IMG/VR virus record: IMGVR_UViG_3300042868_002089
Strand: one strand, 5' to 3'
DNA: 64,000 nt
From: an uncultured virus (IMG/VR IMGVR_UViG_3300042868_002089)
Lineage: Duplodnaviria > Heunggongvirae > Uroviricota > Caudoviricetes
Shown here: in pieces, positions 5,350 to 22,930 of the stretch
Position numbering within the stretch: the first letter of the stretch is position 1
Layout of the letters: each line of letters begins with the position of its first letter
Notes under the pieces: generated by a model
Databases searched by the model: none
Told to the model about the DNA's origin: nothing
Seen by the model: the letters and a program-made list of their open reading frames with translations, nothing else
Program-made: the position numbers and the translations under genes

Positions 5350-5382
5350 ACAACAAACCATAGTCAACTCAAGGAGATCATC

Positions 5383-5832
5383 ATGACTAAATCAACTCTC
5401 ATCAATGTTACTTACTCTCAGTTTGCAGAGGGTGTCGGTCGCACAGATCGCATGACACTCGAAGCAAGTCTTGCATGGCACAAGGCATATGTGAAGCTCG
5501 ACAAGGAATCACAGTCAGCATGGCGTGACGACTTTGTGCTGAACTATGTTGTGGGTAAGCTCGATACCACAATGAAGCAAGCTGAGATTATTTATGCTCA
5601 GACTCGTGTCGAACGCACAGCCGAGCACGAGAAGGCTGTCAATGCGGGTTGTGCTAAGTTCCGCCACCACATCAGCCGCCCTGAGAAATCAGACGGCAAG
5701 AAGGTTGTGGTCAAGTTCACTCGTGAGCAGGTTAGTGCTTGCGACAATGCGCTTGCGGCTTTCGAGGCTGAGACACTTGCCGAGCAGATCAAGATGTTGC
5801 GTGCTTACCTCGCTACTCTCGAAACTAAATAA
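5383..5832 (+). CDS. Early hypothetical protein (first early gene)
   Basis: 149 aa MTKSTLIN...; RBS CTCAAGGAGA at 5368-5377. Confidence 0.85.
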   Translation: MTKSTLINVTYSQFAEGVGRTDRMTLEASLAWHKAYVKLDKESQSAWRDDFVLNYVVGKLDTTMKQAEIIYAQTRVERTAEHEKAVNAGCAKFRHHISRPEKSDGKKVVVKFTREQVSACDNALAAFEAETLAEQIKMLRAYLATLETK

Positions 5833-5835
5833 TCT

Positions 5836-5852
5836 CGGGAGATTTCTCCCCG
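5836..5852. repeat. GGGGAGA-type palindrome copy 2
   Basis: cGGGAGA-tt-TCTCCCcg. Confidence 0.75.
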
Positions 5853-5891
5853 ACACCGCAAGGGCGAGTCTCTTGCGGTGTTTCATTCTTT
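5853..5891 (+). terminator. Terminator-like hairpin
   Basis: ACACCGCAAG-9nt-CTTGCGGTGT followed by TTCATTCTTT. Confidence 0.55.
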
Positions 5892-5920
5892 GTCCAATCA
5901 ATAATCTCAAGGAGATCATC

Positions 5921-6103
5921 ATGCAATTCTCAGCACCCTACACACCCATCGAGTTCTACGATGCGAGCTTCAACACAGACTCAAAGCACACATTGTGGTG
6001 CGTTCGTGTCACAGGTGCTACTCGTTACGAGCCAATGCCTATGCCCAAAGGTCATTGCGTTGCGCCACCTGACGATAGCGATCTCGACAACATCTCGTTC
6101 TAA
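5921..6103 (+). CDS. Early hypothetical protein
   Basis: MQFSAPY... 60 aa; RBS CTCAAGGAGA 5906-5915. Confidence 0.75.
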   Translation: MQFSAPYTPIEFYDASFNTDSKHTLWCVRVTGATRYEPMPMPKGHCVAPPDDSDLDNISF

Positions 6104-6174
6104 GGAAACTCTACAAGCATAGCGTGCTGTGCTTGTGGGGCAATCCTGCCCACATAACTCTCAAGGAGAAAATC

Positions 6175-6351
6175 ATGACACCAACCAAAGTCATCTCACA
6201 CATCGTGTGTTCACTCGCACTCGTCACATCCATCATCGTGGGTTTGTGGTGCATGAACGAATACGGCGTTGCCCCATTGTGGGCATTGCTCACGCTTGGC
6301 GGATCGTTCTTGTTCGGCACTCAACTCATGCTCATCATCACAGGAGAATAA
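6175..6351 (+). CDS. Small two-TM membrane protein
   Basis: MTPTKVISH...; two hydrophobic stretches; RBS CTCAAGGAGAA. Confidence 0.75.
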   Translation: MTPTKVISHIVCSLALVTSIIVGLWCMNEYGVAPLWALLTLGGSFLFGTQLMLIITGE

Positions 6352-6353
6352 CC

Positions 6354-6602
6354 ATGTACCAACTGTTCAATCAATACCGCACCAAAGAAGTAGGCATCGT
6401 CAAACTTGGCGCTCAAGAGTATCACCTGCAATACCACTACCCCAACGGAGGCAGCAACTACGTTGTCTACGTCTTCAGCAAGAACCTAGCCGAGAGAGGG
6501 CGTGTATTCAGCACAGACGATGCGTTCTTCGCATGGCTCGAAGCCCAGCCCAAGCAACTGAATTTACCTTTCGGGGAGACATCTCCCCGAGATCATCAAT
6601 AA
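6354..6602 (+). CDS. Early hypothetical protein
   Basis: MYQLFNQY...; RBS AGGAGAA. Confidence 0.75.
   Translation: MYQLFNQYRTKEVGIVKLGAQEYHLQYHYPNGGSNYVVYVFSKNLAERGRVFSTDDAFFAWLEAQPKQLNLPFGETSPRDHQ
6571..6590. repeat. GGGGAGA-type palindrome copy 3
   Basis: TCGGGGAGA-ca-TCTCCCCGA. Confidence 0.85.
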
Positions 6603-6631
6603 TCTACATTATTGAGGCAAAAAACCAGTCA

Positions 6632-6938: not shown

Positions 6939-6965
6939 ACACTCAATTTTGGAGTCAATAATCTC

Positions 6966-7670
6966 ATGTACGAAACATACCTCAAACTCAGCGCAAACGA
7001 GCTTCACAACCGCTTAACCGAGCGCAACCTGCACCCAGCCGAGATCGAAAGAATAAAAAACGAGGTGCAATCTTTGAAAGAAACCCTGCGTGTCTCACGC
7101 ATCACACGCACACAGCGCAAGGCAGAGTGGGACAAAGTACTGCAACCCCTGCGCTACGAGATCAATAATGCCAAAGTTGGCATGAGATACGGCGGGGAGA
7201 AAGTCTCCCCAGAACGACAACACGCCTTCAGCGAGTACGTACGCATCATGGAGAAGCTGCTTGCCATGCTAGATGCCCCATTCAAAGCGCTAGACCACAC
7301 GCCCATACAGATCGCTCGTGACAAGGGACTGCCCAACGATGGCGAGCATTGGACTGACTGGATACCTGCAAGGGTCAAGGAGAAGGTAACGGATCTATTC
7401 AATCAAATCGAGGTAGCACCAAGGGGCAAGCGTAAGACGCCCTTCCAACGCACGATGCTCCCTCATCAGCACGAAACAGCCAAGGTGAGATTATTGACCA
7501 AGACAAAGAAAGAGATGGAAACGCTCGAACGCAAGATCGCAATCAACGCATCAGACGAGCGCACAGCCAAGCTCAAACAGATGCAACGAGCCATCAAGAT
7601 TATTGAGGCTCTGGACAAGAACGAAGCTGTACCAGCCACATGGACAAAACTCAACATGGGGGAGGACTGA
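6966..7670 (+). CDS. Hypothetical basic, helical protein
   Basis: MYETYLKLS... 234 aa; RBS GGAG. Confidence 0.85.
   Translation: MYETYLKLSANELHNRLTERNLHPAEIERIKNEVQSLKETLRVSRITRTQRKAEWDKVLQPLRYEINNAKVGMRYGGEKVSPERQHAFSEYVRIMEKLLAMLDAPFKALDHTPIQIARDKGLPNDGEHWTDWIPARVKEKVTDLFNQIEVAPRGKRKTPFQRTMLPHQHETAKVRLLTKTKKEMETLERKIAINASDERTAKLKQMQRAIKIIEALDKNEAVPATWTKLNMGED
7194..7210. repeat. GGGGAGA-type palindrome copy 4 (intragenic)
   Basis: GGGGAGA-aag-TCTCCCC. Confidence 0.75.
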
Positions 7671-7719: not shown

Positions 7720-7781
7720 GTGCTCGGCACTTGGGCAACGCTGTGCACCATCCGCAACCTGCCTAATCAAGGAGAAACAAA

Positions 7782-7970
7782 ATGAAAAGAGAACCACACA
7801 GCAAGTACACCCACGCCATCGTGGAAGTCAAACTAACTGTCACATGGAACGATGGCATCGTTGAGGACTTAACGCCTCACCTACCGCCTGAGCTTCAGTC
7901 GAACATCGAGGAGTACCTCGTTGAGATGGATGACCTGCGTACGCAGAACCCTGCCAACTATTTTCTGTAA
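7782..7970 (+). CDS. Early hypothetical protein
   Basis: 62 aa; RBS TCAAGGAGAAACAA. Confidence 0.8.
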   Translation: MKREPHSKYTHAIVEVKLTVTWNDGIVEDLTPHLPPELQSNIEEYLVEMDDLRTQNPANYFL

Positions 7971-7981
7971 GGAGAAACAAA

Positions 7982-8398
7982 ATGAAATATGAAACGCTAA
8001 TGGAAGCGCAACTGAGCGCCTACCCTGACAGCATCAAGCTGACTGACCTACAGATGATGGATACCTTACGCACCGCCACACCTGACTGGCTCAGCTATCG
8101 CAAGCTCAAGGAGTGGCGGTACTACTCTGACTTGAGCGATGCGTTGAAGGAAGACGAGTGGCTTGTCAATCGTATGTATGAGACCTCGGTGGATCTGCAA
8201 AGTGAAGAGGCACGAGCGCAATGGGCGAGGAACGCCTTCATCTATCGGGCAGAGACGCCCGAAGGGTTCTTCTACGCCTGTTGCAAACAACCTGACGGCA
8301 AATACAAGTTCGTTGGGTTCAGGTACGGACTCGAAGACAGCGAGTACGCATCAGGGTTCGGTGGCATGAATTACACACCAGAAGGAGAAAGCAAATGA
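7982..8398 (+). CDS. Early hypothetical protein
   Basis: 138 aa; RBS AAGGAGAAACAA. Confidence 0.8.
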   Translation: MKYETLMEAQLSAYPDSIKLTDLQMMDTLRTATPDWLSYRKLKEWRYYSDLSDALKEDEWLVNRMYETSVDLQSEEARAQWARNAFIYRAETPEGFFYACCKQPDGKYKFVGFRYGLEDSEYASGFGGMNYTPEGESK

Positions 8399-8679
8399 GC
8401 AAGACAGCAGACATTTTCGGTAAGTCATACGCCGTATATGAACCAGAGGTGGACATAACAGGCAAATGGAATCTACGCAGGGTAGATAAGACACGCACCG
8501 ATGGTGGGTGGGAAATCATGGAGGTGTACTACGACAGCAAGGATCGCCCCGTTGGGGCGTGTGCGTTCTCGGTCTCTAAATCAGAGAGCGCTAACTTCAC
8601 AGATGTGATCGGGATGCTTCAGTCAGCGCAAGCCAAGCCTGTACTGAAGTTGGCGAAAGATGGCAAGTTCATTATTTAA
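8395..8679 (+). CDS. Early hypothetical protein
   Basis: 94 aa; RBS AAGGAGAAAGCAA; ATGA overlap. Confidence 0.8.
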   Translation: MSKTADIFGKSYAVYEPEVDITGKWNLRRVDKTRTDGGWEIMEVYYDSKDRPVGACAFSVSKSESANFTDVIGMLQSAQAKPVLKLAKDGKFII

Positions 8680-8690
8680 GGAGAAAGCAA

Positions 8691-8915
8691 ATGACTAAAG
8701 CCAAACACAAGACCAACATCCAGTTGGTCACAGACCTCATGTCGCACTCACAGCAGGGCGCTCTCATGCAGGCGTTCATCATCGAGGCGATATCCAAGTA
8801 CTCAGAACAAACCAAAGTCTCACCGCCTTGGTCTAACCAAAGCTTCATCAGCGAGGCCGCATGGCGTGCGTGTGCTGACGAGGCGCTCGAAGCAATCAAC
8901 AACAGGAGTAAGTGA
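8691..8915 (+). CDS. Early hypothetical protein
   Basis: 74 aa; RBS AAGGAGAAAGCAA. Confidence 0.8.
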   Translation: MTKAKHKTNIQLVTDLMSHSQQGALMQAFIIEAISKYSEQTKVSPPWSNQSFISEAAWRACADEALEAINNRSK

Positions 8916-9208: not shown

Positions 9209-9245
9209 ATGTGTATTTATTTTTTTATAACTCAAGGAGAAGTAT

Positions 9246-11315
9246 ATGTTTACATTTACAAAGTTCGTTGTGGTTGATTCTGTTGACCGCACCACAGGTA
9301 TGCTGCTTGTGTCGTTCAGCAACAAGTACGCTTTGTACAACGCCAGTCGGCGTCGTGTTATGACTGATGTGATGCGTGCCGACAGTGGTGTTGACCCTAT
9401 CACTCTCATCAATAACGCTCAGTTTGGTATCTGGTTTCATGGCAGTAACTATCGCATGAGCCCTGTTCATGCAGTCGAGACGCTGTCGTTTCCCGATGCG
9501 CTTCTGTACGCCAGTGACCGCTACGATATCCACCAGATGATGCGTGCTGTGCTTCGGCCTGCCAGTGCTTCAGATGCGCGTATCCACCCAGTTGATCGCC
9601 GTCTTATCAATCAGCGTGTCGAGGTCATCGTTGATAAGTACATAGCCAAGCAGACAGGCAATGTGGCAACCATCTCGCCACACGCTAGGTTCAAGGGCGG
9701 GTACTACTACCTTCCGTCTACACTCCTTGCCGCACGCAATGCGTTCCGTGAGTTCGGTCACTTGGTTGCTCGTGCCAAGGCAGATGATCCGTCAGCCGAC
9801 TCCGATGCACTGCGTGAGGCGTTCTACGAGCTTGACAATCGCTATCACGACTTCGATACGCATATCAACAGCGCGTTCTGTGCTCTCGAGGACTTCGGTC
9901 TTGGCATTGTGCACTGTGACTGCGGTCACTACGAAAGCGATGAGAACACGCACGATGTGCGTAACGACACATGGTGTGACTCGTGCTTCGATGATGACGC
10001 TGTGTTCTGCGAGGATGAGAACGAGTACTGGCCTCGTGATGACTGCTACTACTCTGAGTCTCGTGATGCGTACTACTCGTATGATCGTGATGGCGAAGAT
10101 GATGACGATGATGAAGATCGCAACCAACCGATCATGTCGTACTCAACCAATGTGCTCGATGTTATTGGCAATGAGTCAGGCATCAGGTCGTCTCACTTCG
10201 GTGAGTTCACGATGGGCATCGAGCTTGAGATGACTTCGGGTGATGACTACAGCGAGTCAGCCGCTGAGTCTGTGCGTAGCCGTCTCGGTTCCTCATACTG
10301 CATCATCAAGAGTGACGGCTCGCTTCCATCCAATGGCTTCGAGGTCGTGACTTCACCGCATGGTCTTGCCACGCACATCGAGAAGTTCAAGACTTGGGAC
10401 ATTGACCCAGCCTATCGTGCATGGAACACAGGCAAGTGCGGTATGCACGTACACATTGACTCTCGTGCGTTCACTCAGATGACGCTTGGCAAGTTCTTGA
10501 TGTTCATCAACAGCAATGGCAATGTCGACTTCATTCGCAAGATTGCAGGTCGCCATCCATCTGTCGATGACCAAGCCCGTAGCTACTGCGCCGCTGAGCA
10601 CCAGTCCATCCTTGTCAACCCCAAGCAGGCTGTCAAGGGCAAGTCGGGTGAGCGCTATCGCATGGTCAACCTGTGCAATCTCGGTAGCCGTGAGGCTATA
10701 CGCTTGGGTCTTAGCATGGACAACAGCTACAACGGCAGGTACAACACTGTCGAGCTTCGCATCTTCCGTGCTTCGCTCAAGAAGGAACGTCTGCTTGCAC
10801 AGATCGAGTTCACTCATGCGTCTGTCATGTTCTGCCGTGTCGCATCGTGGCGTGATCTCAACGGCACATCGTTCGTCAAGTGGCTCAAGACTGTGGCAGG
10901 TCAGTACCCTGCGCTAGTCAAGTGGTATGGCGTGCGTGCTGTGCATGGTGCATCTAAGCAACCCTCTGCCCCTGCCGAGGTTACTTGCACTGACACTGTG
11001 CCCCCTGTTGTTGCCTTTACAACCCGACGCCCTCACGGGTGTGACCACGAGTATCGGATGGAGATAGCGCATGAGGATGGCGCTGGTATACGTGCCTACG
11101 CTACCCGACACGGGCTGTACTTCACATACTTCAGGGTGATCGGCTTGCAGTTGTGTGTGTTCCCGTACAGCGGCAACGATCAGCAGATCGGTGACGAGGA
11201 TGTGATCTACGTGCGTGACAACGATGTGTGGCGTCTGCAAGACGACGACTTCAACTCATTGATTCAGGGTCAGAGCCCTGTGCCTGCCGATGTTGATGGC
11301 AATGCTTCCGTTTAA
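9246..11315 (+). CDS. Putative amidoligase (COOH-NH2 ligase, Amidoligase_2-like) with Cys-rich N-terminal module
   Basis: GIELE, KSDGSL, GFEVVTSP, CGMHVH, RYRMVN, TVELRIF motifs; HCDC and WCDSC Cys pairs. Confidence 0.8.
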   Translation: MFTFTKFVVVDSVDRTTGMLLVSFSNKYALYNASRRRVMTDVMRADSGVDPITLINNAQFGIWFHGSNYRMSPVHAVETLSFPDALLYASDRYDIHQMMRAVLRPASASDARIHPVDRRLINQRVEVIVDKYIAKQTGNVATISPHARFKGGYYYLPSTLLAARNAFREFGHLVARAKADDPSADSDALREAFYELDNRYHDFDTHINSAFCALEDFGLGIVHCDCGHYESDENTHDVRNDTWCDSCFDDDAVFCEDENEYWPRDDCYYSESRDAYYSYDRDGEDDDDDEDRNQPIMSYSTNVLDVIGNESGIRSSHFGEFTMGIELEMTSGDDYSESAAESVRSRLGSSYCIIKSDGSLPSNGFEVVTSPHGLATHIEKFKTWDIDPAYRAWNTGKCGMHVHIDSRAFTQMTLGKFLMFINSNGNVDFIRKIAGRHPSVDDQARSYCAAEHQSILVNPKQAVKGKSGERYRMVNLCNLGSREAIRLGLSMDNSYNGRYNTVELRIFRASLKKERLLAQIEFTHASVMFCRVASWRDLNGTSFVKWLKTVAGQYPALVKWYGVRAVHGASKQPSAPAEVTCTDTVPPVVAFTTRRPHGCDHEYRMEIAHEDGAGIRAYATRHGLYFTYFRVIGLQLCVFPYSGNDQQIGDEDVIYVRDNDVWRLQDDDFNSLIQGQSPVPADVDGNASV

Positions 11316-12528: not shown

Positions 12529-12795
12529 ATGAAACTTTTTACTTCTAAGCTTGACCGAATACCCAACGACAAAAAGGAGCCGCTGTACACATTGGAAGAG
12601 ATAGCCGACAGGCTTGGCGTTGAGCACAAGGTGCTGAAGAGCCTTATTAGCAGGAGTAGTAGGGTGTGCCCATCACCTAAAGCTGTGCTTATAGCCAGAT
12701 CACATAGTCAGATGACTAAGAAGTTATACATGCTGTCTGAATACAAAGCATGGTTTAAACAACGGCAAGACAGTATCAAAGGAGAAAGCAAATGA
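12529..12795 (+). CDS. Small HTH DNA-binding protein (excisionase/MerR-like)
   Basis: LYTLEEIADRLGV pattern. Confidence 0.55.
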   Translation: MKLFTSKLDRIPNDKKEPLYTLEEIADRLGVEHKVLKSLISRSSRVCPSPKAVLIARSHSQMTKKLYMLSEYKAWFKQRQDSIKGESK

Positions 12796-13274
12796 GAAAG
12801 ACAGGGTGGGATCCACCTGCGCTGATGCAGGATGACCACGGAGGGCTAAGCAGATGGTTTGCTACACGCCCTGATGCACGCTATGTTTTTATTAAAAACC
12901 AAAGGAGAAAGCAAATGAAATACAAAATGGAAATAGTCATGTCCTACTGGCAGACAGTAGTGATCGAAGCCGACAGCCGTGCCGATGCTGAGAACAGGGC
13001 GCTCTACGAGTTTGACATCAGCAAGGCACGCATGGGGGATGGTGAGGTGTATGACACAAAGATTGTCTATGAGCCTACGCCAGAAGAGAATGCCTTCTTG
13101 GAAGCATACCTTCGGAATGTTGCCTCTGCATCACGAGACGAAGTGCTGATGTTCCTTGAATACGTGGTCGATGGGGGCATAAACAAAGACAGCTATCACT
13201 GGTGGTCAGGCGTGGAAGACGCATGGCTTATGTGGAAAGACGCTAAGAAATTTTTACAAGGAGAAATCAAATGA
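12792..13274 (+). CDS. Hypothetical protein with a second in-frame start at 12915
   Basis: Two identical RBS-start units AAGGAGAAAGCAAATG in the same frame. Confidence 0.75.
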   Translation: MRKTGWDPPALMQDDHGGLSRWFATRPDARYVFIKNQRRKQMKYKMEIVMSYWQTVVIEADSRADAENRALYEFDISKARMGDGEVYDTKIVYEPTPEENAFLEAYLRNVASASRDEVLMFLEYVVDGGINKDSYHWWSGVEDAWLMWKDAKKFLQGEIK

Positions 13275-13561: not shown

Positions 13562-13585
13562 GTACCCCCAAGGAGAAATAACTAA

Positions 13586-15548: not shown

Positions 15549-15714
15549 CAAGCAGTGGATAATTTTTAAACAGCTTGGCGGACTCGATTGGTTGCGTGAG
15601 TTGCTTGACAAGAAAGCGCCCATGCCAAAGAAGTACTACGACAACGAGCTTGAGCGGATACGCAACCCAGCCGATGCCGCCTTTTTAAACAGAAGGAGAG
15701 ACGAGAATGACTAA
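15493..15714 (+). CDS. Small putative DNA-binding protein (ribbon-helix-helix-like)
   Basis: MPRPK...VRLSDKQW...GGLDWLRELLD; RBS AAGGAG. Confidence 0.65.
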   Translation: MPRPKPPAPLKVRYVRLSDKQWIIFKQLGGLDWLRELLDKKAPMPKKYYDNELERIRNPADAAFLNRRRDEND

Positions 15715-15988
15715 GCCACCCATACCGACAAGCGACCAGCTTGATCTGTTTCACGAGACCACGCGCAAGCATGTACAAGCGCTTACAGCCAACGATGTGC
15801 AAGTAGCGGGCACTCACTACAAGGGCAAGGCCATACAACCATGGGACTACATCGTGGGCAACAACCTTGGCTATCTTGAAGGCAACATAGTAAAGTACGT
15901 GTCCCGCTGGAAGGACAAGGGCGGTGTCGATGACCTGAAGAAGGCGCGTCACTACTTAGACAAATTAATAGAAACACAGGAGAAATGA
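15707..15988 (+). CDS. DUF3310 / SaV-like protein
   Basis: QVAGTHY...IQPWD...GNIVKYVSRWKDKGGVDDLKKARHYL. Confidence 0.85.
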   Translation: MTKPPIPTSDQLDLFHETTRKHVQALTANDVQVAGTHYKGKAIQPWDYIVGNNLGYLEGNIVKYVSRWKDKGGVDDLKKARHYLDKLIETQEK

Positions 15989-15989
15989 C

Positions 15990-16217
15990 ATGACCAAAGA
16001 CATTGAAGAAACACGCGCACTCAACAACAAACGCGATCAAGTGGAAGCTGCAGTAGAGATTCTCAAAACCGCAATGGGCACGCAGAAAGTAGACATCGGC
16101 ATATCTGCGCTCATGAGCTACCTGTGCATGCTTGCGTACCACAACGGCTACCCGCTTGACAAGATGGTTGCATACATGGCAACGCTATATGAAATGCATG
16201 GAGCGAAAAACAAATGA
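15990..16217 (+). CDS. Hypothetical protein
   Basis: 75 aa; RBS AGGAGAA. Confidence 0.7.
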   Translation: MTKDIEETRALNNKRDQVEAAVEILKTAMGTQKVDIGISALMSYLCMLAYHNGYPLDKMVAYMATLYEMHGAKNK

Positions 16218-16769: not shown

Positions 16770-17046
16770 CGGCTCAATGTCTGAAGCGGAGCTACACAGC
16801 AGGGTGACGGCCATGTCAGACGAAGAGCAAGCCCACTTCAAGCTACTGATCCACAAACTAGTGATGTGCTATGGCGAGGGCAAAGCACAAGGCGTGGTCA
16901 TCGTTGGCCGCGCTGAAGACCAAATAGCAGGAGTCGTTACCCTAAACTGTAACGAGATGGAGGCGTCGCAGCTCATGCTGGCGGCAAACGATTTTTTCGG
17001 CTTTCTAAACTTGCTAGACGCACCACCAAAAGAACACTTTAACTGA
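16750..17046 (+). CDS. Hypothetical protein
   Basis: 98 aa in operon. Confidence 0.7.
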   Translation: MKYKDFDGSMSEAELHSRVTAMSDEEQAHFKLLIHKLVMCYGEGKAQGVVIVGRAEDQIAGVVTLNCNEMEASQLMLAANDFFGFLNLLDAPPKEHFN

Positions 17047-17056
17047 AGGAGAAGCG

Positions 17057-17275
17057 ATGACACAAGATGAAATTTTAGAGGCGCTGCACAAAGTTGTGGC
17101 AGAGAACACGCACTACACAACGTGGACTGTATCAACCCCGCACTTGGTTCTTTTGGTCAACTTAGCCATTGAACAGGAGCGTGAGGCGTGTGCCGACATT
17201 GCTGAGAACTGGAACAGCAATGGGATGCCTAGAACTGGAGTGGCAAATGAAATCAGAGCAAGGGGGCAAGCATGA
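17057..17275 (+). CDS. Conserved phage protein
   Basis: EREACA...IRARG motif; RBS AAGGAGAAGC. Confidence 0.75.
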   Translation: MTQDEILEALHKVVAENTHYTTWTVSTPHLVLLVNLAIEQEREACADIAENWNSNGMPRTGVANEIRARGQA

Positions 17276-17514
17276 CTGACTGGACACCCGAAGAAGACGA
17301 AGCTTTCAACGATGTTGAAAAGCACAGCAACCTTGGCAAGCAGATACTGCGTGACATGGGACAGCCGTATGTGTACGCACCCAAGCGTGAGTGGGTGGGG
17401 CTGACGGATGTAGAGATCGTGGACATTATGGATGTGGAGTTAACTACGCAAAACACTGAGCACTTTGCACTCTGCCAAGCCATTGAAGCCAAACTCAAGG
17501 AGAAGAACACGTGA
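17272..17514 (+). CDS. Conserved phage protein
   Basis: WVGLTD...AIEAKLKEKN motif. Confidence 0.75.
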   Translation: MTDWTPEEDEAFNDVEKHSNLGKQILRDMGQPYVYAPKREWVGLTDVEIVDIMDVELTTQNTEHFALCQAIEAKLKEKNT

Positions 17515-17804
17515 CACCAAACACAATTGAATTTAAAACCACAAGCAACACATTGATGGATGGTTGGGTGATGCGTATCACAGCAGATAGGCGCATTGAA
17601 GTTAATGAAGACGTTGATGTAACTGAAGCCGCAAAGCAGGTGCTAGAGGCTATGCAGTGGATGATTGATAATCAGAAGCGCACATGGGTCGACCTGACCA
17701 ACAAAGAGATCGGTGAGATATACCGCGCAGGGTGGGCAAACAACATGGACTACGCCGAGGCGATTCAGAAAGCACTAAAGGAGAAGAATGAGCGCACCAT
17801 ATGA
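17511..17804 (+). CDS. Conserved phage protein (C-terminus paralogous to previous gene)
   Basis: WVDLTN...AIQKALKEKN; GTG start with RBS CTCAAGGAGAAG. Confidence 0.7.
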   Translation: MTPNTIEFKTTSNTLMDGWVMRITADRRIEVNEDVDVTEAAKQVLEAMQWMIDNQKRTWVDLTNKEIGEIYRAGWANNMDYAEAIQKALKEKNERTI

Positions 17805-19773
17805 CACGATCTTATCGATCGACTTCGAGACCTACTGGGACACCAAGATAGGTTACACACTAACCAAAATGACAACTGAGGAGTACATACGCCATGACTT
17901 ATTTCACGCGTTTGGATGCTGCGTTCATGAGTTCGGATCTGACAGCCCAACTACGTGGGTTAGAGGAGATGGACTACGTGAATACTTTTCTGGAATCGAC
18001 TGGGGACGAACCGCAGTGCTTGCGCACAACGCACAGTTCGATGTATCAATTATGGAGTGGCGATACGGTGTACGCCCATGCTTCATCTTCGATACCCTAT
18101 CAATGGCGCGAGCTTTACGTGGCGTGGAAGTTGGAAACTCACTTGCAAAGCTCGCCCGTGACTTCGGGCTTCCAGATAAAGGTACAGCGGTTCATTCAAC
18201 TAACGGAGTTCACGAGCTGGAACCCAGCCTTGAACGAGAACTCGCTGAATACTGCAAGCATGATGTGTTTCTGTGCGAGGAAATATTCAAACGGCTGGTG
18301 GATGCCTACCCATCGAAGGAACTACGGCTTATAGACATGACCCTCAAGATGTACACCCGTGCATGCCTTGAGCTTGACCCCAACATGCTGACCGACGCCA
18401 TACTAGACGAAAAGGAAAAACGTGAAGCCCTATTACAGAAACTCGGCGTGGACGAAACTGCTCTGGCGTCGAACCCGCAGTTTGCTGCACTACTTGAGAA
18501 ACTCAATGTGGTTCCGCCAACCAAGACAAGTAAGACGACTGGGAAAGAGACACTTGCCCTCGCTAAAAACGATGCCCTATTTCAAGCGCTACTCAATGGT
18601 GAACGTGAGGACGTTGCCCTACTTTGTGAAGCGCGTCTTAAGGTTAAATCTACCACTGAGCGCACCCGTGCACAGCGCTTCTTGGACATCAGCAAACGTG
18701 GCTCGCTTCCAGTTCCGCTTTCGTACTACGGTGCACAGACAGGCCGCTGGACAGCGTCGAAAGGCTCGGCCATCAACATGCAGAACCTCAAGCGAGGCTC
18801 GTTCTTACGCAAAGCAATTATGGCTCCCGCTGGCCACCAACTCGTCGTTGGAGATCTATCGCAGATTGAGCCGCGAGTACTCGCGTGGCTTTCAGACTAC
18901 ACGGACATGCTGGACATCTTCCGCGCTGGGGGTGACCCTTACGCCGCGTTCGGTTCGCAGATGTTTAACATACCCGGACTTAGTAAGGAGTCTCACCCCG
19001 ATCTTAGGCAGTCAGCGAAAAGCGCGCTCCTTGGCTGTGGATACGGTCTTGGCTGGGCGGCTTTTGCTTCACAGCTTCTCACTGGATTCCTTGGGGCACC
19101 ACCACAGCGCTACGACTTGGCCTTTGCAAAGAAGCTTGGCGTTACTCAACAAGCAGCGCAGAAGTTCTTGGAATGGGAAGTCAATGTCGAGAAGCTCCAA
19201 TCCATACCGCACACCTGCACAACCAAGGAGCTAGTCATCCACTGCCTTGCGGCCAAGGCCATCATCGACAAGTACCGCGCTACGGCTACGCCTGTCGTGG
19301 AGTTCTGGGACTTGAACACACAGCTTATCGGTGAGTGTCTGTACAGAGGCAAGACGTACAAGCACAAGTGCCTGACGTACCGCAAGGGGGAGATTGAGCT
19401 GCCCTCTGGCATGAAACTGTTGTATCCTGACCTCAACATCAGGCGCTTTACAGACGAGAAAACAAATAAAGAGCAGACAGAGTGGACATACGGGCCAGAT
19501 CGTACTAAGATATATGCAGGAAAAATAACCAACAATGTCACGCAGGGCGTAGCGAGATGCGTGATGACTGATGGGATGGTACGTACTGCAAAGAGATACT
19601 TTGTGGCGGGGACAGTACATGACGAGCAGATCGTTGTGGTTCCTGACGCTGAAGTAGCTGAAGCTAAGACTTGGGTCTTGGCGCAGATGACTATGGAGCC
19701 GCCTTACATGCCGGGCATTCCATTGGACGCTGACGGTGGCGCGCACCGTAGATATGGGTTAGCAAAAAACTAG
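17788..19773 (+). CDS. polA: DNA polymerase family A with 3'-5' exonuclease
   Basis: DFET, HNAQFD, TGRW, NMQNL, DLSQIEPR (motif A), RQSAKSALLGCGYG (motif B), VHDE (motif C). Confidence 0.95.
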   Translation: MSAPYDTILSIDFETYWDTKIGYTLTKMTTEEYIRHDLFHAFGCCVHEFGSDSPTTWVRGDGLREYFSGIDWGRTAVLAHNAQFDVSIMEWRYGVRPCFIFDTLSMARALRGVEVGNSLAKLARDFGLPDKGTAVHSTNGVHELEPSLERELAEYCKHDVFLCEEIFKRLVDAYPSKELRLIDMTLKMYTRACLELDPNMLTDAILDEKEKREALLQKLGVDETALASNPQFAALLEKLNVVPPTKTSKTTGKETLALAKNDALFQALLNGEREDVALLCEARLKVKSTTERTRAQRFLDISKRGSLPVPLSYYGAQTGRWTASKGSAINMQNLKRGSFLRKAIMAPAGHQLVVGDLSQIEPRVLAWLSDYTDMLDIFRAGGDPYAAFGSQMFNIPGLSKESHPDLRQSAKSALLGCGYGLGWAAFASQLLTGFLGAPPQRYDLAFAKKLGVTQQAAQKFLEWEVNVEKLQSIPHTCTTKELVIHCLAAKAIIDKYRATATPVVEFWDLNTQLIGECLYRGKTYKHKCLTYRKGEIELPSGMKLLYPDLNIRRFTDEKTNKEQTEWTYGPDRTKIYAGKITNNVTQGVARCVMTDGMVRTAKRYFVAGTVHDEQIVVVPDAEVAEAKTWVLAQMTMEPPYMPGIPLDADGGAHRRYGLAKN

Positions 19774-19781
19774 GAGAAGCA

Positions 19782-20087
19782 ATGAAGTTACCAACCAAGA
19801 TAAGAGTTGGGCGAAGGTGGTACTCAGTCGAAGTAGTCGAAGCCATGCTTGACAAGCGTGACATGGGGCGGGTCTTTTACCATGACCAACGCATCCAACT
19901 AGGTCGAACGAGTAACACCACAGGCAGGCAGTTCAAACCAGAGGAGATCGCAGATACCTTCTGGCACGAGGTTGTACACACAATTCTGAGGGACATGGGC
20001 GAGCACCGCCTCAATGCCAACGAAGCGTTTGTCACCAAGTTTGCCAACCGACTCACCGAAGCCATTAACACAGCGAAGTTCGAATGA
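19782..20087 (+). CDS. Small HExxH metallopeptidase-like protein
   Basis: TFWHEVVHTIL...NEAFV. Confidence 0.7.
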   Translation: MKLPTKIRVGRRWYSVEVVEAMLDKRDMGRVFYHDQRIQLGRTSNTTGRQFKPEEIADTFWHEVVHTILRDMGEHRLNANEAFVTKFANRLTEAINTAKFE

Positions 20088-20749
20088 AAAAACAAGCATG
20101 GTCACACAGCAGTCTCAAAGATTTTGAAGGCTGCCAACGCAGATACCACGAAGTCAAGGTCTTGAAGAAGTACCCCTTCCAAGAGACTGAGGCAACAAAG
20201 TACGGCAATCAGGTGCATGAAGCCATTGAACTCTACATCAGAGACAAGAAGCCAATACCGCCTGAGTATGCGCAGTTCCAGTCTGTAGTGGACGCCATGC
20301 TTAAGAAGCCCGGAAGGGCTTTGGCTGAGTACGAAATGGCGCTGACTGTTGACCTACGCCCTACCAACTGGAAGGCTCCCGATGTTTGGGTTCGAGGCAT
20401 TGCCGACATCCTGATCGTAGATGACGAGAACCTTACAGCTTGGGTGGGTGACTGGAAGACTGGCAACAACAAGTACCCCGACAGGGATCAGCTTGTGCTC
20501 ATGTCGCTCATGGTGTTCGCGCATTTCCCGCACATCCGCAAAGTTAACTCTGCGTTGCTGTTCATCGTCAAAGATGATATGGTCAAGATGCAGATGACAC
20601 GAGACCAAGCCGAGCAGTTCTGGTGGAAGTATCGTGAGCGTACTGCGCGTCTTGAAGCATGCTTTGAGACGGGTGTATGGAACCCCAATCAAACCCCACT
20701 TTGCGGATGGTGTCAGGTCACCGGATGCGAGTTCAACCCTAAGCACTAA
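20084..20749 (+). CDS. PD-(D/E)XK Cas4/RecB-like exonuclease
   Basis: WSHSSL..F..C, RGIAD, DWKTG, QL, C-terminal CGWC...C. Confidence 0.9.
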   Translation: MKKQAWSHSSLKDFEGCQRRYHEVKVLKKYPFQETEATKYGNQVHEAIELYIRDKKPIPPEYAQFQSVVDAMLKKPGRALAEYEMALTVDLRPTNWKAPDVWVRGIADILIVDDENLTAWVGDWKTGNNKYPDRDQLVLMSLMVFAHFPHIRKVNSALLFIVKDDMVKMQMTRDQAEQFWWKYRERTARLEACFETGVWNPNQTPLCGWCQVTGCEFNPKH

Positions 20750-20757
20750 GGAAATTT

Positions 20758-21042
20758 ATGTCTTATCTCCACCCAGATGATGTTATTAATTCGTGCCCAA
20801 GCATGTGCCATGTCTGTGGCCATGTTCTACGCTCCGGCGATAGTGCCATCGTACATGATGGGCGGGTACACACCAGTGCGGATAACGGCACTGAGTACGG
20901 ATCAATTGGATTGCACACAGAGTGCGCTACTATTTTGGCAATGCGCTTAATTGCAGATGTAATGAGGCATAGAGGCGTTAAGCATGAGCCTCGTGTAGTG
21001 CTAAGCCTAAGCAGAATTCGTAAAGCAATTTTAGAGGACTGA
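20758..21042 (+). CDS. Hypothetical protein (Cys/His, possible Zn-binding)
   Basis: CHVC...HTEC; RBS AAGGA. Confidence 0.65.
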   Translation: MSYLHPDDVINSCPSMCHVCGHVLRSGDSAIVHDGRVHTSADNGTEYGSIGLHTECATILAMRLIADVMRHRGVKHEPRVVLSLSRIRKAILED

Positions 21043-21044
21043 CC

Positions 21045-21284
21045 ATGACACAAGTAAACGGCAAGCGTGACTACAAACACGCATACAAACTACAAAAGAA
21101 AACAGGTGAAACAGCCGACCAGATCGAGCGTCAAAAAGCTCGTAGAACCTATGACAAGAAGGGCATTGACCGAGCAGGCAAGGACATTGACCACATCAAA
21201 CCTTTGCGTGCAGGCGGCAAGTCAACGACAGGTAACACCCGACTCCGTAACAAGAGCGCTAACCAAAGCGACAACGGAAAATAA
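21045..21284 (+). CDS. Small HNH endonuclease-like protein
   Basis: KDIDHIKPL...GG...N.R....NQSDN. Confidence 0.8.
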   Translation: MTQVNGKRDYKHAYKLQKKTGETADQIERQKARRTYDKKGIDRAGKDIDHIKPLRAGGKSTTGNTRLRNKSANQSDNGK

Positions 21285-21299
21285 TAGCTTGGAGAAGCA

Positions 21300-22859
21300 A
21301 TGGAAATCGTAGAAGACAAAGCACTTATCTTACGCACAAGGAACCCGCACAAGTACTCAATCATCCCAAAGAGCAAGGCCATGCCCCGTGCAGACGGTGG
21401 CTACGATGTCGCTGTTTACTGGGGTCTTGACGAAGCGCGGGTGTTGCGTAACCTAGGTGTTAAAAATGTGCCATCGCCGATTGTTCGGCGCTATGACTGG
21501 CCGGGGCGTTACAAGCCCATGGCGCACCAGATCGAGACTGCATCGTTCCTCACGATGTACAGGAGAGCCTTTGTGTTCTCTGAGCCCGGTACTGGCAAGA
21601 CACTGTCTGCGCTCTGGGCGGCTGACTACTTGATGAAACTCAAGAAGGTGCGTAGGGTTTTGATTCTGTGTCCTCTGTCGATCATGCACAGCGCATGGAT
21701 GGGGGACATCAACAACAGCGTCATTCACCGCTCTGCCGTTATCGCGCACCATCCGCAAGCTAGTCGGCGCATCGAGATGATTCAGCGTGACTACGAGATC
21801 GTCATCACCAACTACGAAGGGCTCAACCTGATTGCGGATGAAGTGCGTAACGATGGCCGCTTCGACCTAGTGATTGTTGACGAAGCCAACGCGTACAAGA
21901 CCATCACCACACGCAGATGGAAGTCGCTCAATTCTATCCTTATGCCGAACACGTACCTGTGGATGATGACTGGTACGCCTGCATCGCAGTCGCCTGTGGA
22001 TGCGTATGGTTTGGCCAAGTTAGTTAACCCAGAGGGCGTGCCCAAGTTCTTCACAGCATGGCGCGATCAGGTGATGAACAAGCTAACGATGTTCAAGTGG
22101 GCTCCTAAGTTTGATGCCAAGGAGAAAGTGCACGAAGCCCTGCAACCTGCGATACGCTTTACCAAAGCACAGTGCCTTGACTTGCCGCCTGTCATCACAA
22201 TGACGCGTGAAGTACCGCTGACCCCACAGCAAGCCAAGTACTACACAATGCTCAAAGACCGCATGCTGGTGCAAGCTGCAGGTGAGACGATCACCGCTGT
22301 CAACGCCGCCGCAGGCGTATCCAAGCTACTGCAGATCAGTTGTGGTGCGGCCTACACAGACGACAAGGAAGTTGTTGAGTTCGACTCAGCGCCCCGCCTG
22401 TCGGTGCTTGAGGAAATCTTGGAGGAGACTGATCGCAAGGTCATCATCTTCGCCCTGTTCCGAAGCACCATCGACACGATCAGTAACTACCTGACCAAGA
22501 AGGGCGTTGTCAACGAGTGCATTCACGGAGACATATCCCCAAGCAAGCGCGGTATAACTATCAACCGCTTCCAGACCGAGCCAAACCCCCGTGTGTTAGT
22601 GATGCAACCAGCCGCTTCTGCCCACGGCATTACGCTGACTGCCGCTGATACTGTGGTGTTCTATGGCCCGCTCATGAGCGTTGAGCAGTACATCCAGTGC
22701 TGTGCCCGTGCTGACCGCAAAGGGCAAGACTCAGACAAAGTTACTGTGATTCACATTCAGAGTAGCCCGATTGAGAAGAAGATGTTTAATGCGTTGGCTG
22801 GGAAAGTTAGCGATAACTTACTTTTGACTGACATGTTTGAAACTGAAATTAAATCTTGA
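21300..22859 (+). CDS. SNF2-family DNA helicase
   Basis: PGTGKT, VDEA, MTGTP, HGITLT, Q...RADRKGQ. Confidence 0.92.
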   Translation: MEIVEDKALILRTRNPHKYSIIPKSKAMPRADGGYDVAVYWGLDEARVLRNLGVKNVPSPIVRRYDWPGRYKPMAHQIETASFLTMYRRAFVFSEPGTGKTLSALWAADYLMKLKKVRRVLILCPLSIMHSAWMGDINNSVIHRSAVIAHHPQASRRIEMIQRDYEIVITNYEGLNLIADEVRNDGRFDLVIVDEANAYKTITTRRWKSLNSILMPNTYLWMMTGTPASQSPVDAYGLAKLVNPEGVPKFFTAWRDQVMNKLTMFKWAPKFDAKEKVHEALQPAIRFTKAQCLDLPPVITMTREVPLTPQQAKYYTMLKDRMLVQAAGETITAVNAAAGVSKLLQISCGAAYTDDKEVVEFDSAPRLSVLEEILEETDRKVIIFALFRSTIDTISNYLTKKGVVNECIHGDISPSKRGITINRFQTEPNPRVLVMQPAASAHGITLTAADTVVFYGPLMSVEQYIQCCARADRKGQDSDKVTVIHIQSSPIEKKMFNALAGKVSDNLLLTDMFETEIKS

Positions 22860-22866
22860 AAGGGGG

Positions 22867-22909
22867 TTGCAACGATCGAAATTACATGTAAACTGTCCAA
22901 CCTTAGACA
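22867..22909 (+). promoter_or_regulatory. Sigma70-like promoter overlapped by operator copy 3
   Basis: TTGCAA-16bp-TAAACT; TGTCCAACCTTAGACA at 22894-22909. Confidence 0.55.
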
Positions 22910-22930
22910 ACAAAATAACAGGAGAAGCAA

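What the first reader, a model, noticed from the sequence alone, without database searches (positions are those of the whole stretch)
5368..22930. RBS dichotomy: early/middle genes use GGAGAA, late genes avoid it
Seen: most plus-strand genes carry (A)AGGAGA(A) with downstream (A)GCAA/ACAA. Minus-strand late genes inspected use AAGGAGTAAC (major capsid), AGGAGTCC (63555), AAGGAGTAAA (48283, 46393), AAGGAGTCAG (40242), AGGAGTCTG (58472), AAGGAGCTT (61492), AGGAACAC (portal) and AAGGAAT (61844, 49885). These break pairing to the putative sRNA right after GGAG. Inference: this is the address code that lets late mRNAs escape. Exceptions exist; the primase RBS AAGGACTT is not a target.
Basis: partly seen in the sequence, partly recalled or inferred. 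Interest (0 to 1): 0.75.

Follow-up and report, generated by a model that had tools for sequence, protein, structure and literature searches.

The report
Phage early genes share ribosome tag
In this uncultured phage and its relatives the early and replication genes share one stereotyped ribosome-binding sequence that the late structural genes never use, and a conserved small antisense RNA beside the early promoter carries its exact complement, so the tag may let the phage control the two gene classes separately.

Summary
With an SD-blind-to-next-base gene finder, GGAGAA precedes 17 of 41 plus-strand (early/replication) genes and 0 of 38 minus-strand (late) genes (Fisher p=2e-6); among GGAG-bearing sites A follows in 20/29 versus 1/11 (p=0.001). 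AAGGAGAA occurs 17 times (1.6 expected). The bias recurs in six related phage records (71-96% identity) and is specific to start sites.

The 'putative sRNA' also looks real: window 4984-5070 (+) is a three-stem-loop RNA with intrinsic terminator, found once per relative (75 hits), always antisense to the terminase leader, with strong covariation (94.7% of cells paired vs 76.4% shuffled) and about 250 G-U cells that fix the strand. Its unpaired UCUCCUU complements AAGGAGA.

Whether the tag is an 'address code' is unproven. The RNA's perfect target is in cis, on the late strand; only half the early genes carry the tag; early sites are also simply stronger (GGAG 29/41 vs 11/38); a distant phage without this RNA shows a similar A bias; seed/site covariation is weak. 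No RNA data exist. Closest precedent: T4 RegB/S1, which cuts GGAG+A-rich early Shine-Dalgarno sites. Verdict: real class-specific ribosome-site dialect; the RNA reader is plausible (about one in three).

The parts
5371..5385 (+). early-type start site AAGGAGATCATC-ATG (gene 5383..5832)
5909..5923 (+). early-type start site AAGGAGATCATC-ATG (gene 5921..6103), identical to the one at 5371
6163..6177 (+). early-type start site AAGGAGAAAATC-ATG
6341..6356 (+). early-type start site CAGGAGAATAACC-ATG
7769..7784 (+). early-type start site AAGGAGAAACAAA-ATG
7969..7984 (+). early-type start site AAGGAGAAACAAA-ATG
8382..8397 (+). early-type start site AAGGAGAAAGCAA-ATG (ATGA overlap with upstream stop)
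8678..8693 (+). early-type start site AAGGAGAAAGCAA-ATG
9234..9248 (+). early-type start site (CTC)AAGGAGAAGTAT-ATG, amidoligase-like 689-aa gene
12779..12794 (+). early-type start site AAGGAGAAAGCAA-ATG (12792; read by eye, missed by my gene finder)
12902..12917 (+). second identical site AAGGAGAAAGCAA-ATG, in frame inside the same ORF
13258..13273 (+). early-type start site AAGGAGAAATCAA-ATG
13431..13445 (+). early-type start site AAGGAGAAAACA-ATG (30-codon ORF, uncertain gene)
13570..13588 (+). early-type start site AAGGAGAAATAACTAA-ATG
15693..15709 (+). start site AAGGAGAGACGAGA-ATG (GGAGA, not GGAGAA)
15977..15992 (+). early-type start site CAGGAGAAATGAC-ATG
17046..17059 (+). early-type start site AAGGAGAAGCG-ATG
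17497..17513 (+). early-type start site (CTC)AAGGAGAAGAACAC-GTG
17778..17790 (+). early-type start site AAGGAGAAGA-ATG, DNA polymerase A
19772..19784 (+). early-type start site AGGAGAAGCA-ATG (19782; read by eye)
21289..21302 (+). early-type start site TTGGAGAAGCA-ATG, SNF2-type helicase
22919..22933 (+). early-type start site CAGGAGAAGCAA-ATG
25178..25190 (+). start site GGAGAAAAAT-ATG (25188; read by eye, start uncertain)
25378..25393 (+). primase start site CAAGGACTTCA-ATG: early-strand gene without the tag
63553..63568 (-). late start site TAGGAGTCCTTAA-ATG
62910..62927 (-). late start site AAGGAGTAACTAACC-ATG, major capsid protein
61490..61505 (-). late start site AAGGAGCTTGATT-ATG
58470..58484 (-). 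late start site TAGGAGTCTGAC-ATG
58277..58291 (-). late start site GTGGAGGTTAAG-ATG
56317..56331 (-). late start site TTGGAGTCTTGA-GTG
51983..51998 (-). the one late GGAGA site: TTGGAGACTAACC-ATG (GGAGAC, not GGAGAA)
50869..50883 (-). late start site TAGGAGCTTGCC-GTG
48281..48295 (-). late start site AAGGAGTAAAAA-ATG
46391..46405 (-). late start site AAGGAGTAAACA-ATG, holin
40240..40255 (-). late start site AAGGAGTCAGTAA-ATG
4984..5070 (+). candidate small RNA (about 87 nt): SL1, unpaired anti-SD, SL2, intrinsic terminator
   Evidence: covariance model hit E=1.4e-6, one per record; covariation; fold; terminator scan
4951..4979 (+). promoter-like block TTGTTG-17 nt-TACACT (weak sigma-70 match, 7 of 12); -10 lies in the 10-nt palindrome AGTGTACACT (4970-4979)
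   Evidence: conserved TTG and TA(C/T)ACT columns in 42 relatives; not reported by the consensus scan; inference
4987..5017 (+). SL1: GGCAAUGG ... CUGUUGCU with conserved GCAA in the loop; 3' arm is the 5' part of the complement to GGAGAAGCAA
   Evidence: helices 1-2: 97.5% and 89.4% of cells paired, 8 of 9 pairs with double changes
5018..5024 (+). unpaired UCUCCUU = complement of AAGGAGA (invariant core GCTTCTCCT in 42 of 42 aligned relatives)
5025..5036 (+). SL2 GAGG-UUCG-CCUC (GAUGG...CCAUC in most relatives)
   Evidence: helix 3: 97.9% paired, 4 of 5 pairs with double changes
5042..5070 (+). intrinsic terminator GCCCCGG-CTAAACA-CCGGGGC + TCTTTTTT
   Evidence: helix 4: 92.8% paired, 7 of 8 pairs with double changes
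5013..5024 (-). the only early-type SD on the late strand, AAGGAGAAGCAA; no start codon within 3-11 nt in this phage, ATG/GTG at 4-8 nt in 39 of 64 variants
4340..4921 (-). first late gene (small-terminase position, 193 aa); conserved ATG at 4921, no SD
   Evidence: third-position variation starts at this ATG, indels not multiples of 3 upstream
5089..5118 (+). early promoter TGGACA-18-TATAGT (10 of 12), directly after the RNA terminator
   Evidence: conserved in relatives
5269..5296 (+). second promoter-like site TTCTCA-16-TAAAAT with TG extension, upstream of the first early gene
   Evidence: TGCTATAAT at the same place in G002 and G003

Best explanation
The two strands use two translation-initiation dialects. 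Early/replication genes (plus strand, made from sigma-70-type promoters at 5089-5118 and 5269-5296) mostly start with one stereotyped, strong cassette, (CTC)AAGGAGAA(A)(G)CAA-ATG: a 6-7 nt Shine-Dalgarno match plus an A-rich spacer. Late structural genes use weaker, mixed sites (AGGAGT, AGGA, GAGG or none). I take the primary cause to be translation strategy and cassette ancestry: short early messages must capture ribosomes fast, and the same optimal cassette has spread among the small, frequently exchanged early genes, while late genes in one long operon need less. Shown: the bias, its restriction to start sites, its persistence across the clade. The conserved RNA at 4984-5070 is, in this reading, chiefly a cis-antisense regulator of the terminase-operon leader, which carries the single early-type site on the late strand; its complementarity to the early sites follows from that site being a member of the same family. 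Inferred, not shown: transcription of the RNA, the late promoter, any repression. Trans action on early messages is possible on top of this.
For: Early sites are stronger in general, not only different after GGAG: GGAG in 29/41 early vs 11/38 late genes (p=2.9e-4), A fraction of the spacer 0.54 vs 0.36. Only 17-20 of 41 early genes carry GGAGA(A); primase, exonuclease and others do not. Site type is kept between orthologues in nearer relatives (G004 11+13 of 29 concordant, p=1.3e-4; G005 p=0.005; G006 p=0.003) but not in the two most distant (G002 p=1, G003 p=0.38), while the class-level bias persists there (GGAGAA 10/42 vs 1/43 and 20/43 vs 2/45): a class habit, not a fixed regulon. Phage DSL-LC04, with no significant match to the RNA model (best E=0.76, 50 of 61.5 kb scanned), has A after GGAG in 13/15 replication-region vs 6/19 structural sites, p=0.002. 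On the late strand the motif is followed by ATG or GTG at 4-8 nt in 39 of 64 distinct variants, i.e. it is an ordinary start site for a short upstream ORF in most lineages, and the terminase small-subunit gene behind it has no SD of its own. In type-A-seed phages 63 of 78 early GGAGAA sites continue with A, which mismatches the RNA.
Against: Optimal-site selection does not explain shared flanks (CTCA upstream, GCAA downstream) or why 0 of 200 seeds with shuffled flanks pair as well with early sites. 16 of 64 variants have no start codon within 3-11 nt of the late-strand motif (8 more only a TTG at 8-11 nt), the window's own clade included, yet 63 of 64 keep GGAGA: conservation does not depend on the upstream ORF. 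Late sites have A after GGAG in 1/11 against 37% inside late genes. Two weak covariation trends go the way the trans model predicts (GGAGAAG share 15/78 with seed type A vs 2/45 with type B, p=0.029; CAGGAG share higher in the one CUCCUGA-seed phage, p=0.016; loci are related, so these are not independent). The upstream ORF varies from 8 to 31 codons and changes frame, so its peptide is not conserved.
Confidence: 0.4

Rival explanations
1. Address code read by the small RNA. The RNA from 4984-5070 accumulates, its unpaired UCUCCUU nucleates on AAGGAGA and pairing extends into GCAA/CTCA flanks, blocking ribosome entry on tagged early/replication messages; late sites, with U, C or no GGAG, pair 4 kcal/mol less well and escape.
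For: A structured plus-sense RNA is well supported: one model hit per record, 75 in 92 sources, always antisense to TerL; 94.7% of 1331 cells paired vs 76.4% in shuffles (0/500), 19 of 22 pairs with double changes, slid controls 38-54%; about 251 G-U cells by my sum of that table, which would be A-C mismatches on the other strand; plus-sense folds more stable in 36 of 43; U-run after the last hairpin in all. Pairing: early median -13.7 vs late -9.4 kcal/mol (p=1.4e-5), similar in G001, G004, G005, G006. Motif conserved where no start codon follows. Weak covariation in the predicted direction. Hairpin, U-rich linker and U-tailed terminator resemble the Hfq-binding module of trans-acting sRNAs (recalled).
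Against: No RNA data. Perfect target is cis and on the late strand. Half the early genes lack the tag. G002: early vs late pairing p=0.027 and 23.5% of flank-shuffled seeds do as well; G003 was not computed (script stopped). Most early sites mismatch the seed right after GGAGAA. DSL-LC04 shows the A bias without this RNA. The gene sits next to the early promoter with a sigma-70-like promoter, so it may be made early, an odd time for a shut-off unless it works as a slow timer. The covariation alignment was fitted to the model, which favours the structure.
Confidence: 0.33
2. Address code read by a protein, as in T4: a RegB-like endoribonuclease (with ribosomal protein S1) cutting GGAG followed by an A-rich stretch, or a RegA-like repressor binding the shared start region of early messages.
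For: T4 RegB cuts GG*AG in early Shine-Dalgarno sites; strong sites fit GGAGRAYARAA with an A-rich 3' side, and most middle and all late GGAG-bearing messages resist (PMC3014915, passages read). Here GGAG is enriched in early sites and followed by A-rich sequence. About 25 small early proteins have no family assignment.
Against: No RegB or RegA family among 51 window proteins scanned against Pfam at E<=0.01, nor among 82 against PHROGs. The local consensus GGAGAA(A)GCAA fits the T4 consensus only at the first six positions and the last two.
Confidence: 0.1
3. Recombination scar: the 13-17 nt identical start cassettes are junctions at which small early genes are exchanged or duplicated, and have no regulatory meaning; late genes are not shuffled and so lack them.
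For: Identical cassettes at 5371/5909, 7769/7969, 8382/8678/12779/12902; two in-frame copies 123 nt apart in one ORF (12779, 12902); early regions are the least alignable part between relatives (23-29 kb of 64 kb aligned to G002-G006).
Against: Does not explain the A-vs-T difference among GGAG sites of conserved core genes (polymerase, helicase) nor the antisense RNA; not tested directly (breakpoints were not mapped).
Confidence: 0.12
4. Chance or start-calling artefact.
For: Start choice in small ORFs is uncertain; my gene finder mis-started several genes.
Against: Motif counts need no gene calls (17 vs 1.59 expected; 16 vs 1 by strand); the finder is blind to the base after GGAG; replicated in six relatives.
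Confidence: 0.02

Closest known systems
Phage T4 RegB endoribonuclease with ribosomal protein S1 (review PMC3014915, passages read)
   Same: A Shine-Dalgarno-level sequence tag marks one temporal class: GGAG, followed by an A-rich stretch, is typical of early start sites and makes them targets for inactivation, while late messages escape.
   Different: The local motif matches GGAGRAYARAA only in part. Here a complementary RNA exists instead.
Trans-acting sRNAs with unpaired C/U-rich anti-SD motifs
   Same: Short structured RNA, terminator-ended, that shows a pyrimidine anti-SD stretch able to pair with many ribosome-binding sites.
   Different: Not a member of any: best Rfam scores are below the curated thresholds (PsrR1 24.9 vs 42 bits, suhB/MmgR 23.5 vs 41; none at gathering). 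Those are cellular RNAs; this one is phage-encoded, overlaps a late-operon leader, and its motif lies in a linker between two stems, not in a loop.
Phage cis-antisense RNAs that cover a ribosome-binding site: P22 sar, lambda OOP, P1/P7 c4 (recalled; lambda OOP paper PMC5869508 seen only in a search listing)
   Same: Small RNA with its own terminator, transcribed against the leader of a phage operon, complementary to that operon's start site.
   Different: Those act on one target. Here the same sequence is also repeated at about 20 start sites on the RNA's own strand, so many trans targets are possible. Transcription is not shown here.
T4 RegA translational repressor (PMC3014915)
   Same: One factor competes with ribosomes at the start regions of about 30 early and middle messages.
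   Different: RegA sites are A+U-rich around the AUG without a sharp consensus; no RegA homologue here.

Membership tests
T4 RegB/S1 early-message inactivation | a RegB-family endoribonuclease gene | tested here: not met
   0 of 51 proteins (Pfam, E<=0.01) and 0 of 82 (PHROGs) match RegB; remote homologues could be missed
T4 RegB/S1 early-message inactivation | GGAG-type SD enriched in early, under-used or resistant in late start sites | tested here: met
   GGAG 29/41 early vs 11/38 late, p=2.9e-4
T4 RegB/S1 early-message inactivation | strong-site consensus GGAGRAYARAA | tested here: inconclusive
   A-rich 3' side is present (A 68% and 59% at -6/-5) but GGAGAAAGCAA and GGAGAAGCAA depart at positions 7-9 of the consensus quoted
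T4 RegB/S1 early-message inactivation | cleavage between G and A of GGAG in vivo | not testable with these tools
   no RNA run holds the phage
Rfam PsrR1 (RF02701) and suhB/MmgR (RF00519) | score at or above the family's gathering threshold | tested here: not met
   24.9 vs 42 bits and 23.5 vs 41 bits, both on the + strand at 4996-5079; no family at gathering
cis-antisense RBS-covering phage RNA (sar/OOP/c4 kind) | RNA gene overlaps, on the opposite strand, an SD of the target operon's leader | tested here: met
   4984-5070 (+) covers AAGGAGAAGCAA at 5013-5024 (-), 92 nt upstream of the TerS ATG at 4921
cis-antisense RBS-covering phage RNA (sar/OOP/c4 kind) | own promoter and own terminator | tested here: inconclusive
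   terminator found and covarying; promoter is only a conserved weak match TTGnnn-17-TA(C/T)ACT, below the scan's cut-off
cis-antisense RBS-covering phage RNA (sar/OOP/c4 kind) | the target leader is transcribed through the overlap | not testable with these tools
   late promoter not identified; no RNA data
trans-acting base-pairing sRNA | conserved unpaired seed | tested here: met
   GCTTCTCCT invariant in 42 of 42; unpaired between SL1 and SL2 in the window fold and the model
trans-acting base-pairing sRNA | several targets with complementarity beyond chance | tested here: met
   13/41 early sites with >=9 nt runs vs 0/38 late; 0/200 flank-shuffled seeds as good; computational only
trans-acting base-pairing sRNA | seed and targets covary between relatives | tested here: inconclusive
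   two weak trends, p=0.029 and 0.016, loci related, one counter-example L016
trans-acting base-pairing sRNA | expression and target repression | not testable with these tools
   no RNA holder listed

The most novel reading that the evidence does not exclude
An abundant clade of uncultured phages times its own translation with a trans-acting anti-Shine-Dalgarno RNA: the roughly 87-nt RNA made beside the early promoter reads a private extension of the SD (A, then AGCAA, after GGAG) that tags early and replication messages, shuts them off as it accumulates, and spares late messages that differ by as little as one base after GGAG. The same RNA also gates the terminase operon in cis. This would be an RNA counterpart of T4 RegB.
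Probability: 0.3. Interest if true: 0.85.

Novelty: new variant of a known kind. Interest (0 to 1): 0.6.

Why it matters
Temporal control in phages is usually explained by transcription. A class-wide tag at the ribosome-binding site is known in detail only for T4 (RegB, RegA). Here the same logic appears in an unrelated, environmentally widespread phage group (at least 597 related contigs matched TerL in one collection), together with a conserved RNA that could read the tag. If the RNA acts in trans, one base after GGAG would decide whether a message is silenced, which is directly testable with reporters and would give a compact, portable switch. Even if it does not, the RNA is an undescribed family, absent from Rfam, at the junction of the early and late transcription units.

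Tried and rejected
N4-like reading: I first took the 2914-aa protein for a virion RNA polymerase and the GGGGAG hairpins for N4-type promoters. Pfam shows only a large-polyvalent-protein domain (LPD38), no RNA polymerase was found, and sigma-70-type early promoters are present; dropped.

ORF 5056..4340 as the gene served by AAGGAGAAGCAA: rejected. The conserved start is the ATG at 4921, with frame-breaking indels upstream.

AAGGAGG at 5031-5037 (-) as a second orphan SD: it is the 5' arm of SL2 read on the other strand, replaced by GATGG...CCATC in most relatives.

T after GGAG in late genes as part of an upstream stop codon: true only for 48283; elsewhere the stop precedes GGAG.

General avoidance of GGAGA inside late genes: not seen.

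Expression: no RNA holder listed. The 20 listed runs are DNA, the best two (0.83 and 0.81 of sampled words) labelled lake water metagenome. Read laying was not used because contigs cannot show strand or ends.

DNA searches of the phage collection with 17788-22859 found nothing in either mode. The window's own assembly is not held.

RNAalifold on the MAFFT alignment recovered only SL1, because the other hairpins were misaligned; solved with a covariance model.

Pelagibacter phage HTVC027P as an outgroup shows no dichotomy (GGAGAA 3/26 vs 9/47, p=0.52), but its gene order and base composition (35% G+C) differ.

A search for any anti-SD-plus-terminator element in DSL-LC04 gave two weak candidates that I did not pursue.

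Earlier notes of this scan by place and by sequence: nothing.

Full report
WHAT THE WINDOW IS. The window is most of a phage genome, permuted. A late block runs on the minus strand: 5056->1 (small-terminase position, TerL 4350..2809, portal 2800..185) and 64000->28405 (major capsid 62912..61983, fibres, holin and endolysin, ejection proteins, a 2914-aa protein). An early/replication block runs on the plus strand from 5383 to 28282 (many small ORFs, family-A DNA polymerase 17788, SNF2 helicase 21300, primase 25391). No phage RNA polymerase was found; the giant protein has only an LPD38 domain. Sigma-70-type promoters stand in front of the early block: TGGACA-18-TATAGT at 5089-5118 and TTCTCA-16-TAAAAT with TG at 5269-5296. 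The nearest cultured relatives by TerL are HTVC023P-type Pelagibacter phages and lake phage DSL-LC04, at 49-52% identity. In IMG/VR, 597 of 600 candidate stretches encode a TerL relative, and the 80 loci kept are 82-100% identical.

- All the quoted sites are present.
- Without any gene model, AAGGAGAA occurs 17 times against 1.59 expected (0 of 100 shuffles). Sixteen copies are on the plus strand between 6163 and 22126, and one is on the minus strand at 5017-5024.
- I wrote a small gene finder (codon log-odds plus an SD score that ignores what follows GGAG, weighted interval scheduling over both strands). It gives 41 early and 38 late genes:

| Site | Early (41 genes) | Late (38 genes) | Fisher p |
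|---|---|---|---|
| GGAGAA | 17 | 0 | 2.3e-6 |
| GGAGA among GGAG sites | 20/29 | 1/11 | 0.001 |
| GGAGT among GGAG sites | 4/29 | 7/11 | 0.0037 |
| GGAG | 29 | 11 | 2.9e-4 |

(All.)
- The finder mis-handled 12529, 12792, 19782, 20084, 20758, 25188 and TerS. Reading these by eye would add three GGAGAA sites to the early side.
- Inside genes the base after GGAG does not differ by strand (p=0.70).
- Aligned on the start codon, the two classes differ at -6 and -5.

IT IS A CLADE-WIDE HABIT. I fetched six related records whole (71-96% identity over 23-46 kb). GGAGAA per gene, early vs late:

| Record | Early | Late | p |
|---|---|---|---|
| G001 | 11/24 | 1/40 | — |
| G002 | 10/42 | 1/43 | — |
| G003 | 20/43 | 2/45 | — |
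| G004 | 19/46 | 1/22 | — |
| G005 | 14/33 | 0/38 | — |
| G006 | 12/34 | 1/10 | 0.24 (only 10 late genes) |

For G001-G005 the p values range from 3e-3 to 3e-6. Orthologues keep their site type in G004-G006 even at 40-60% protein identity, but not in G002 and G003. The class bias therefore outlives the individual sites.

THE RNA.
On the plus strand, 5005-5070 reads UUGCUUCUCCUUGAGGUUCGCCUCCUUGCG, then a 7-bp G+C hairpin and UCUUUUUU. The scan calls this a terminator.
- The ORF that seems to contain it (5056..4340) is not real over this stretch. In 30 aligned relatives, third-position variation begins at the ATG at 4921, and frame-breaking indels lie just upstream.
- An alignment of 42 relatives shows five features in order: a conserved block TTGnnn-17-TA(C/T)ACT; a conserved GG(Y)(R)AUGG...GCAA segment; a variable insert; the invariant GCTTCTCCT; and two hairpins whose arms change together.
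- RNAalifold found the first helix, which pairs GGUGAUGG with UCAUUGCU. Four of its eight pairs are G-U.
- A covariance model built from 22 sequences finds 75 matches in 92 sources, at most one per source. All are antisense to TerL. The window's match is at 4984-5070 (+), E=1.4e-6.
- The nine TerL loci without a match have at most 1142 nt upstream of TerL. Eight of them have less than the roughly 720 nt needed.
- On the resulting alignment, 94.7% of 1331 cells pair, against 76.4% in shuffles (0/500) and 38-54% when partners are slid. Nineteen of 22 pairs show double changes. The caveat is that the alignment was fitted to the model.
- By my sum of the pair table, about 251 cells are G-U. These would be A-C on the other strand.
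- Folding both senses of 43 element sequences (one locus entered at two lengths), the plus sense is more stable in 36, equal in 1 and less stable in 6, the window's own among those six.
- The terminator's U-run is present in all. The RNA is therefore a plus-strand molecule: SL1 (4987-5017, GCAA in the loop), unpaired UCUCCUU (5018-5024), SL2 (5025-5036), terminator (5042-5070).
- It matches no Rfam family at threshold. The best sub-threshold matches, all on the plus strand, are to the sRNAs PsrR1 and MmgR.

HOW THE RNA RELATES TO THE DICHOTOMY.
- The unpaired heptamer is the complement of AAGGAGA, so its first U meets the very base that separates the classes.
- Predicted duplexes of a 19-nt seed window with each start region are stronger for early than for late genes: median -13.7 vs -9.4 kcal/mol, p=1.4e-5. 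Thirteen of 41 early sites have perfect runs of 9 nt or more, against 0 of 38 late sites. None of 200 seeds with the same CUCC core but shuffled flanks does as well.
- G001, G004, G005 and G006 behave alike. G002 is weak (p=0.027; 23.5% of shuffles as good). G003 was not computed because my script stopped.

FOR A MERELY CIS ROLE.
- On the late strand the motif is followed by ATG or GTG at 4-8 nt in 39 of 64 distinct variants. This opens a short ORF of 8-31 codons that ends next to, or overlaps, the SD-less terminase gene.

AGAINST A MERELY CIS ROLE.
- Sixteen of 64 variants have no start codon within 3-11 nt, and eight more have only a TTG at 8-11 nt. Yet 63 of 64 keep GGAGA.
- The ORF's length and frame are not conserved.

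FOR A TRANS ROLE.
- There are two weak covariation trends. Neither is phylogenetically corrected, and L016 goes the other way.
  - Where the seed complements GGAGAAGC, 15 of 78 early GGAGAA sites continue with G. Where it complements GGAGAAAGC, 2 of 45 do (p=0.029).
  - The one phage with a CUCCUGA seed has 7 CAGGAG against 5 CAAGGAG sites, compared with 32 against 102 elsewhere (p=0.016).

AGAINST A TRANS ROLE.
- Most early sites still mismatch the seed just after GGAGAA.
- Half the early genes lack the tag.
- The RNA gene sits beside the early promoter.
- DSL-LC04, which has no significant model hit in the 50 kb scanned (E=0.76), shows A after GGAG in 13/15 replication-region sites against 6/19 structural sites (p=0.002).
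- HTVC027P shows no bias.

KNOWN PRECEDENTS.
- The nearest is T4. RegB with protein S1 cuts GG*AG in early Shine-Dalgarno sites; strong sites fit GGAGRAYARAA with an A-rich 3' side; most middle and all late GGAG-bearing messages resist. RegA represses about 30 start regions (PMC3014915, passages read).
- No RegB or RegA homologue is detectable here.
- RNA precedents are recalled, not read: anti-SD sRNAs such as RsaE/RoxS, LhrC and the cuckoo RNAs, and the phage antisense RNAs sar, OOP and c4.
- Two literature searches listed no paper describing a phage sRNA that discriminates temporal classes by SD context. I read only titles and abstract openings of those listings, apart from the T4 review.
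- Earlier notes of this scan report similar anti-SD RNA candidates in other phage windows. They are unchecked leads, not support.

VERDICT.
- The dichotomy is real, start-site-specific and conserved.
- The RNA is very probably real.
- I put about 0.4 on the plain reading: a strong early cassette, with an RNA that acts mainly in cis.
- I put about 0.33 on the address code read by the RNA, about 0.1 on a protein reader, and about 0.12 on a recombination scar.
- No expression data could be obtained.

Noticed in passing
window 5079-5094: Inverted repeat TGTCAAACGTTGGACA overlapping the -35 of the early promoter, the best-conserved 15 nt of the intergenic region (0.97). In G003 it reads TGTCTAGAGTTAGACA, so both arms changed together: probably an operator for a dimeric regulator of early transcription.
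   Followed up: partly
window 4925-4990 and 4970-4979: The stretch between the RNA promoter-like block and the TerS ATG is more conserved (0.91-0.97) than the TerS gene body (0.73-0.97, mostly 0.8-0.9). It contains the perfect 10-nt palindrome AGTGTACACT, so TACACT can be read as a -10 on either strand: possibly face-to-face promoters for the RNA and the late operon.
   Followed up: partly
window 5331-5350, 5835-5853, 6574-6594: Three hairpins of the type GGGGAGA-N3-4-TCTCCCC in the early leader and between early genes, plus a 13-bp hairpin at 5852-5882. The first has a counterpart in G003. Their 3' arms are themselves anti-SD-like. Function unknown.
   Followed up: no
window 12779-12797 and 12902-12920: A 17-nt exact repeat AAAGGAGAAAGCAAATGA gives two in-frame start sites 123 nt apart in ORF 12792..13274: either a nested shorter product or a fused small gene.
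   Followed up: no
window 28405-37149 (-): 2914-aa protein next to the ejection proteins. It has no PHROG match and only an LPD38 'large polyvalent protein' domain at residues 2622-2800. It is not an N4-type virion RNA polymerase by these scans.
   Followed up: partly
window 6603-6965: A 360-nt gap without a gene in the early block, containing CTATCTATCTATCTATTTAATATATATTTATATATATAGATG and a minus-strand promoter-like site TAGACA-18-TATATT (6767-6738). Possibly an origin or a regulatory region.
   Followed up: no
window 5120-5133 and 5223-5240: G-rich repeats (GGGGTGGGGGGTGG; GGGGGTATGGTGGGGTC) between the two early promoters, conserved in relatives. Many related contigs end within about 100 nt of here, which may mark the genome ends or an assembly-breaking repeat.
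   Followed up: no
window 7377-7384 and 22119-22126: Two AAGGAGAA copies inside genes (6966..7670 and the helicase) that are not at called starts. Internal starts were not examined.
   Followed up: no
L107 (phage DSL-LC04) 16290-16385 (+) and 27960-28014 (-): Two anti-SD-like stretches followed by terminator-like hairpins in the outgroup phage. They might be analogues of the RNA described here.
   Followed up: no
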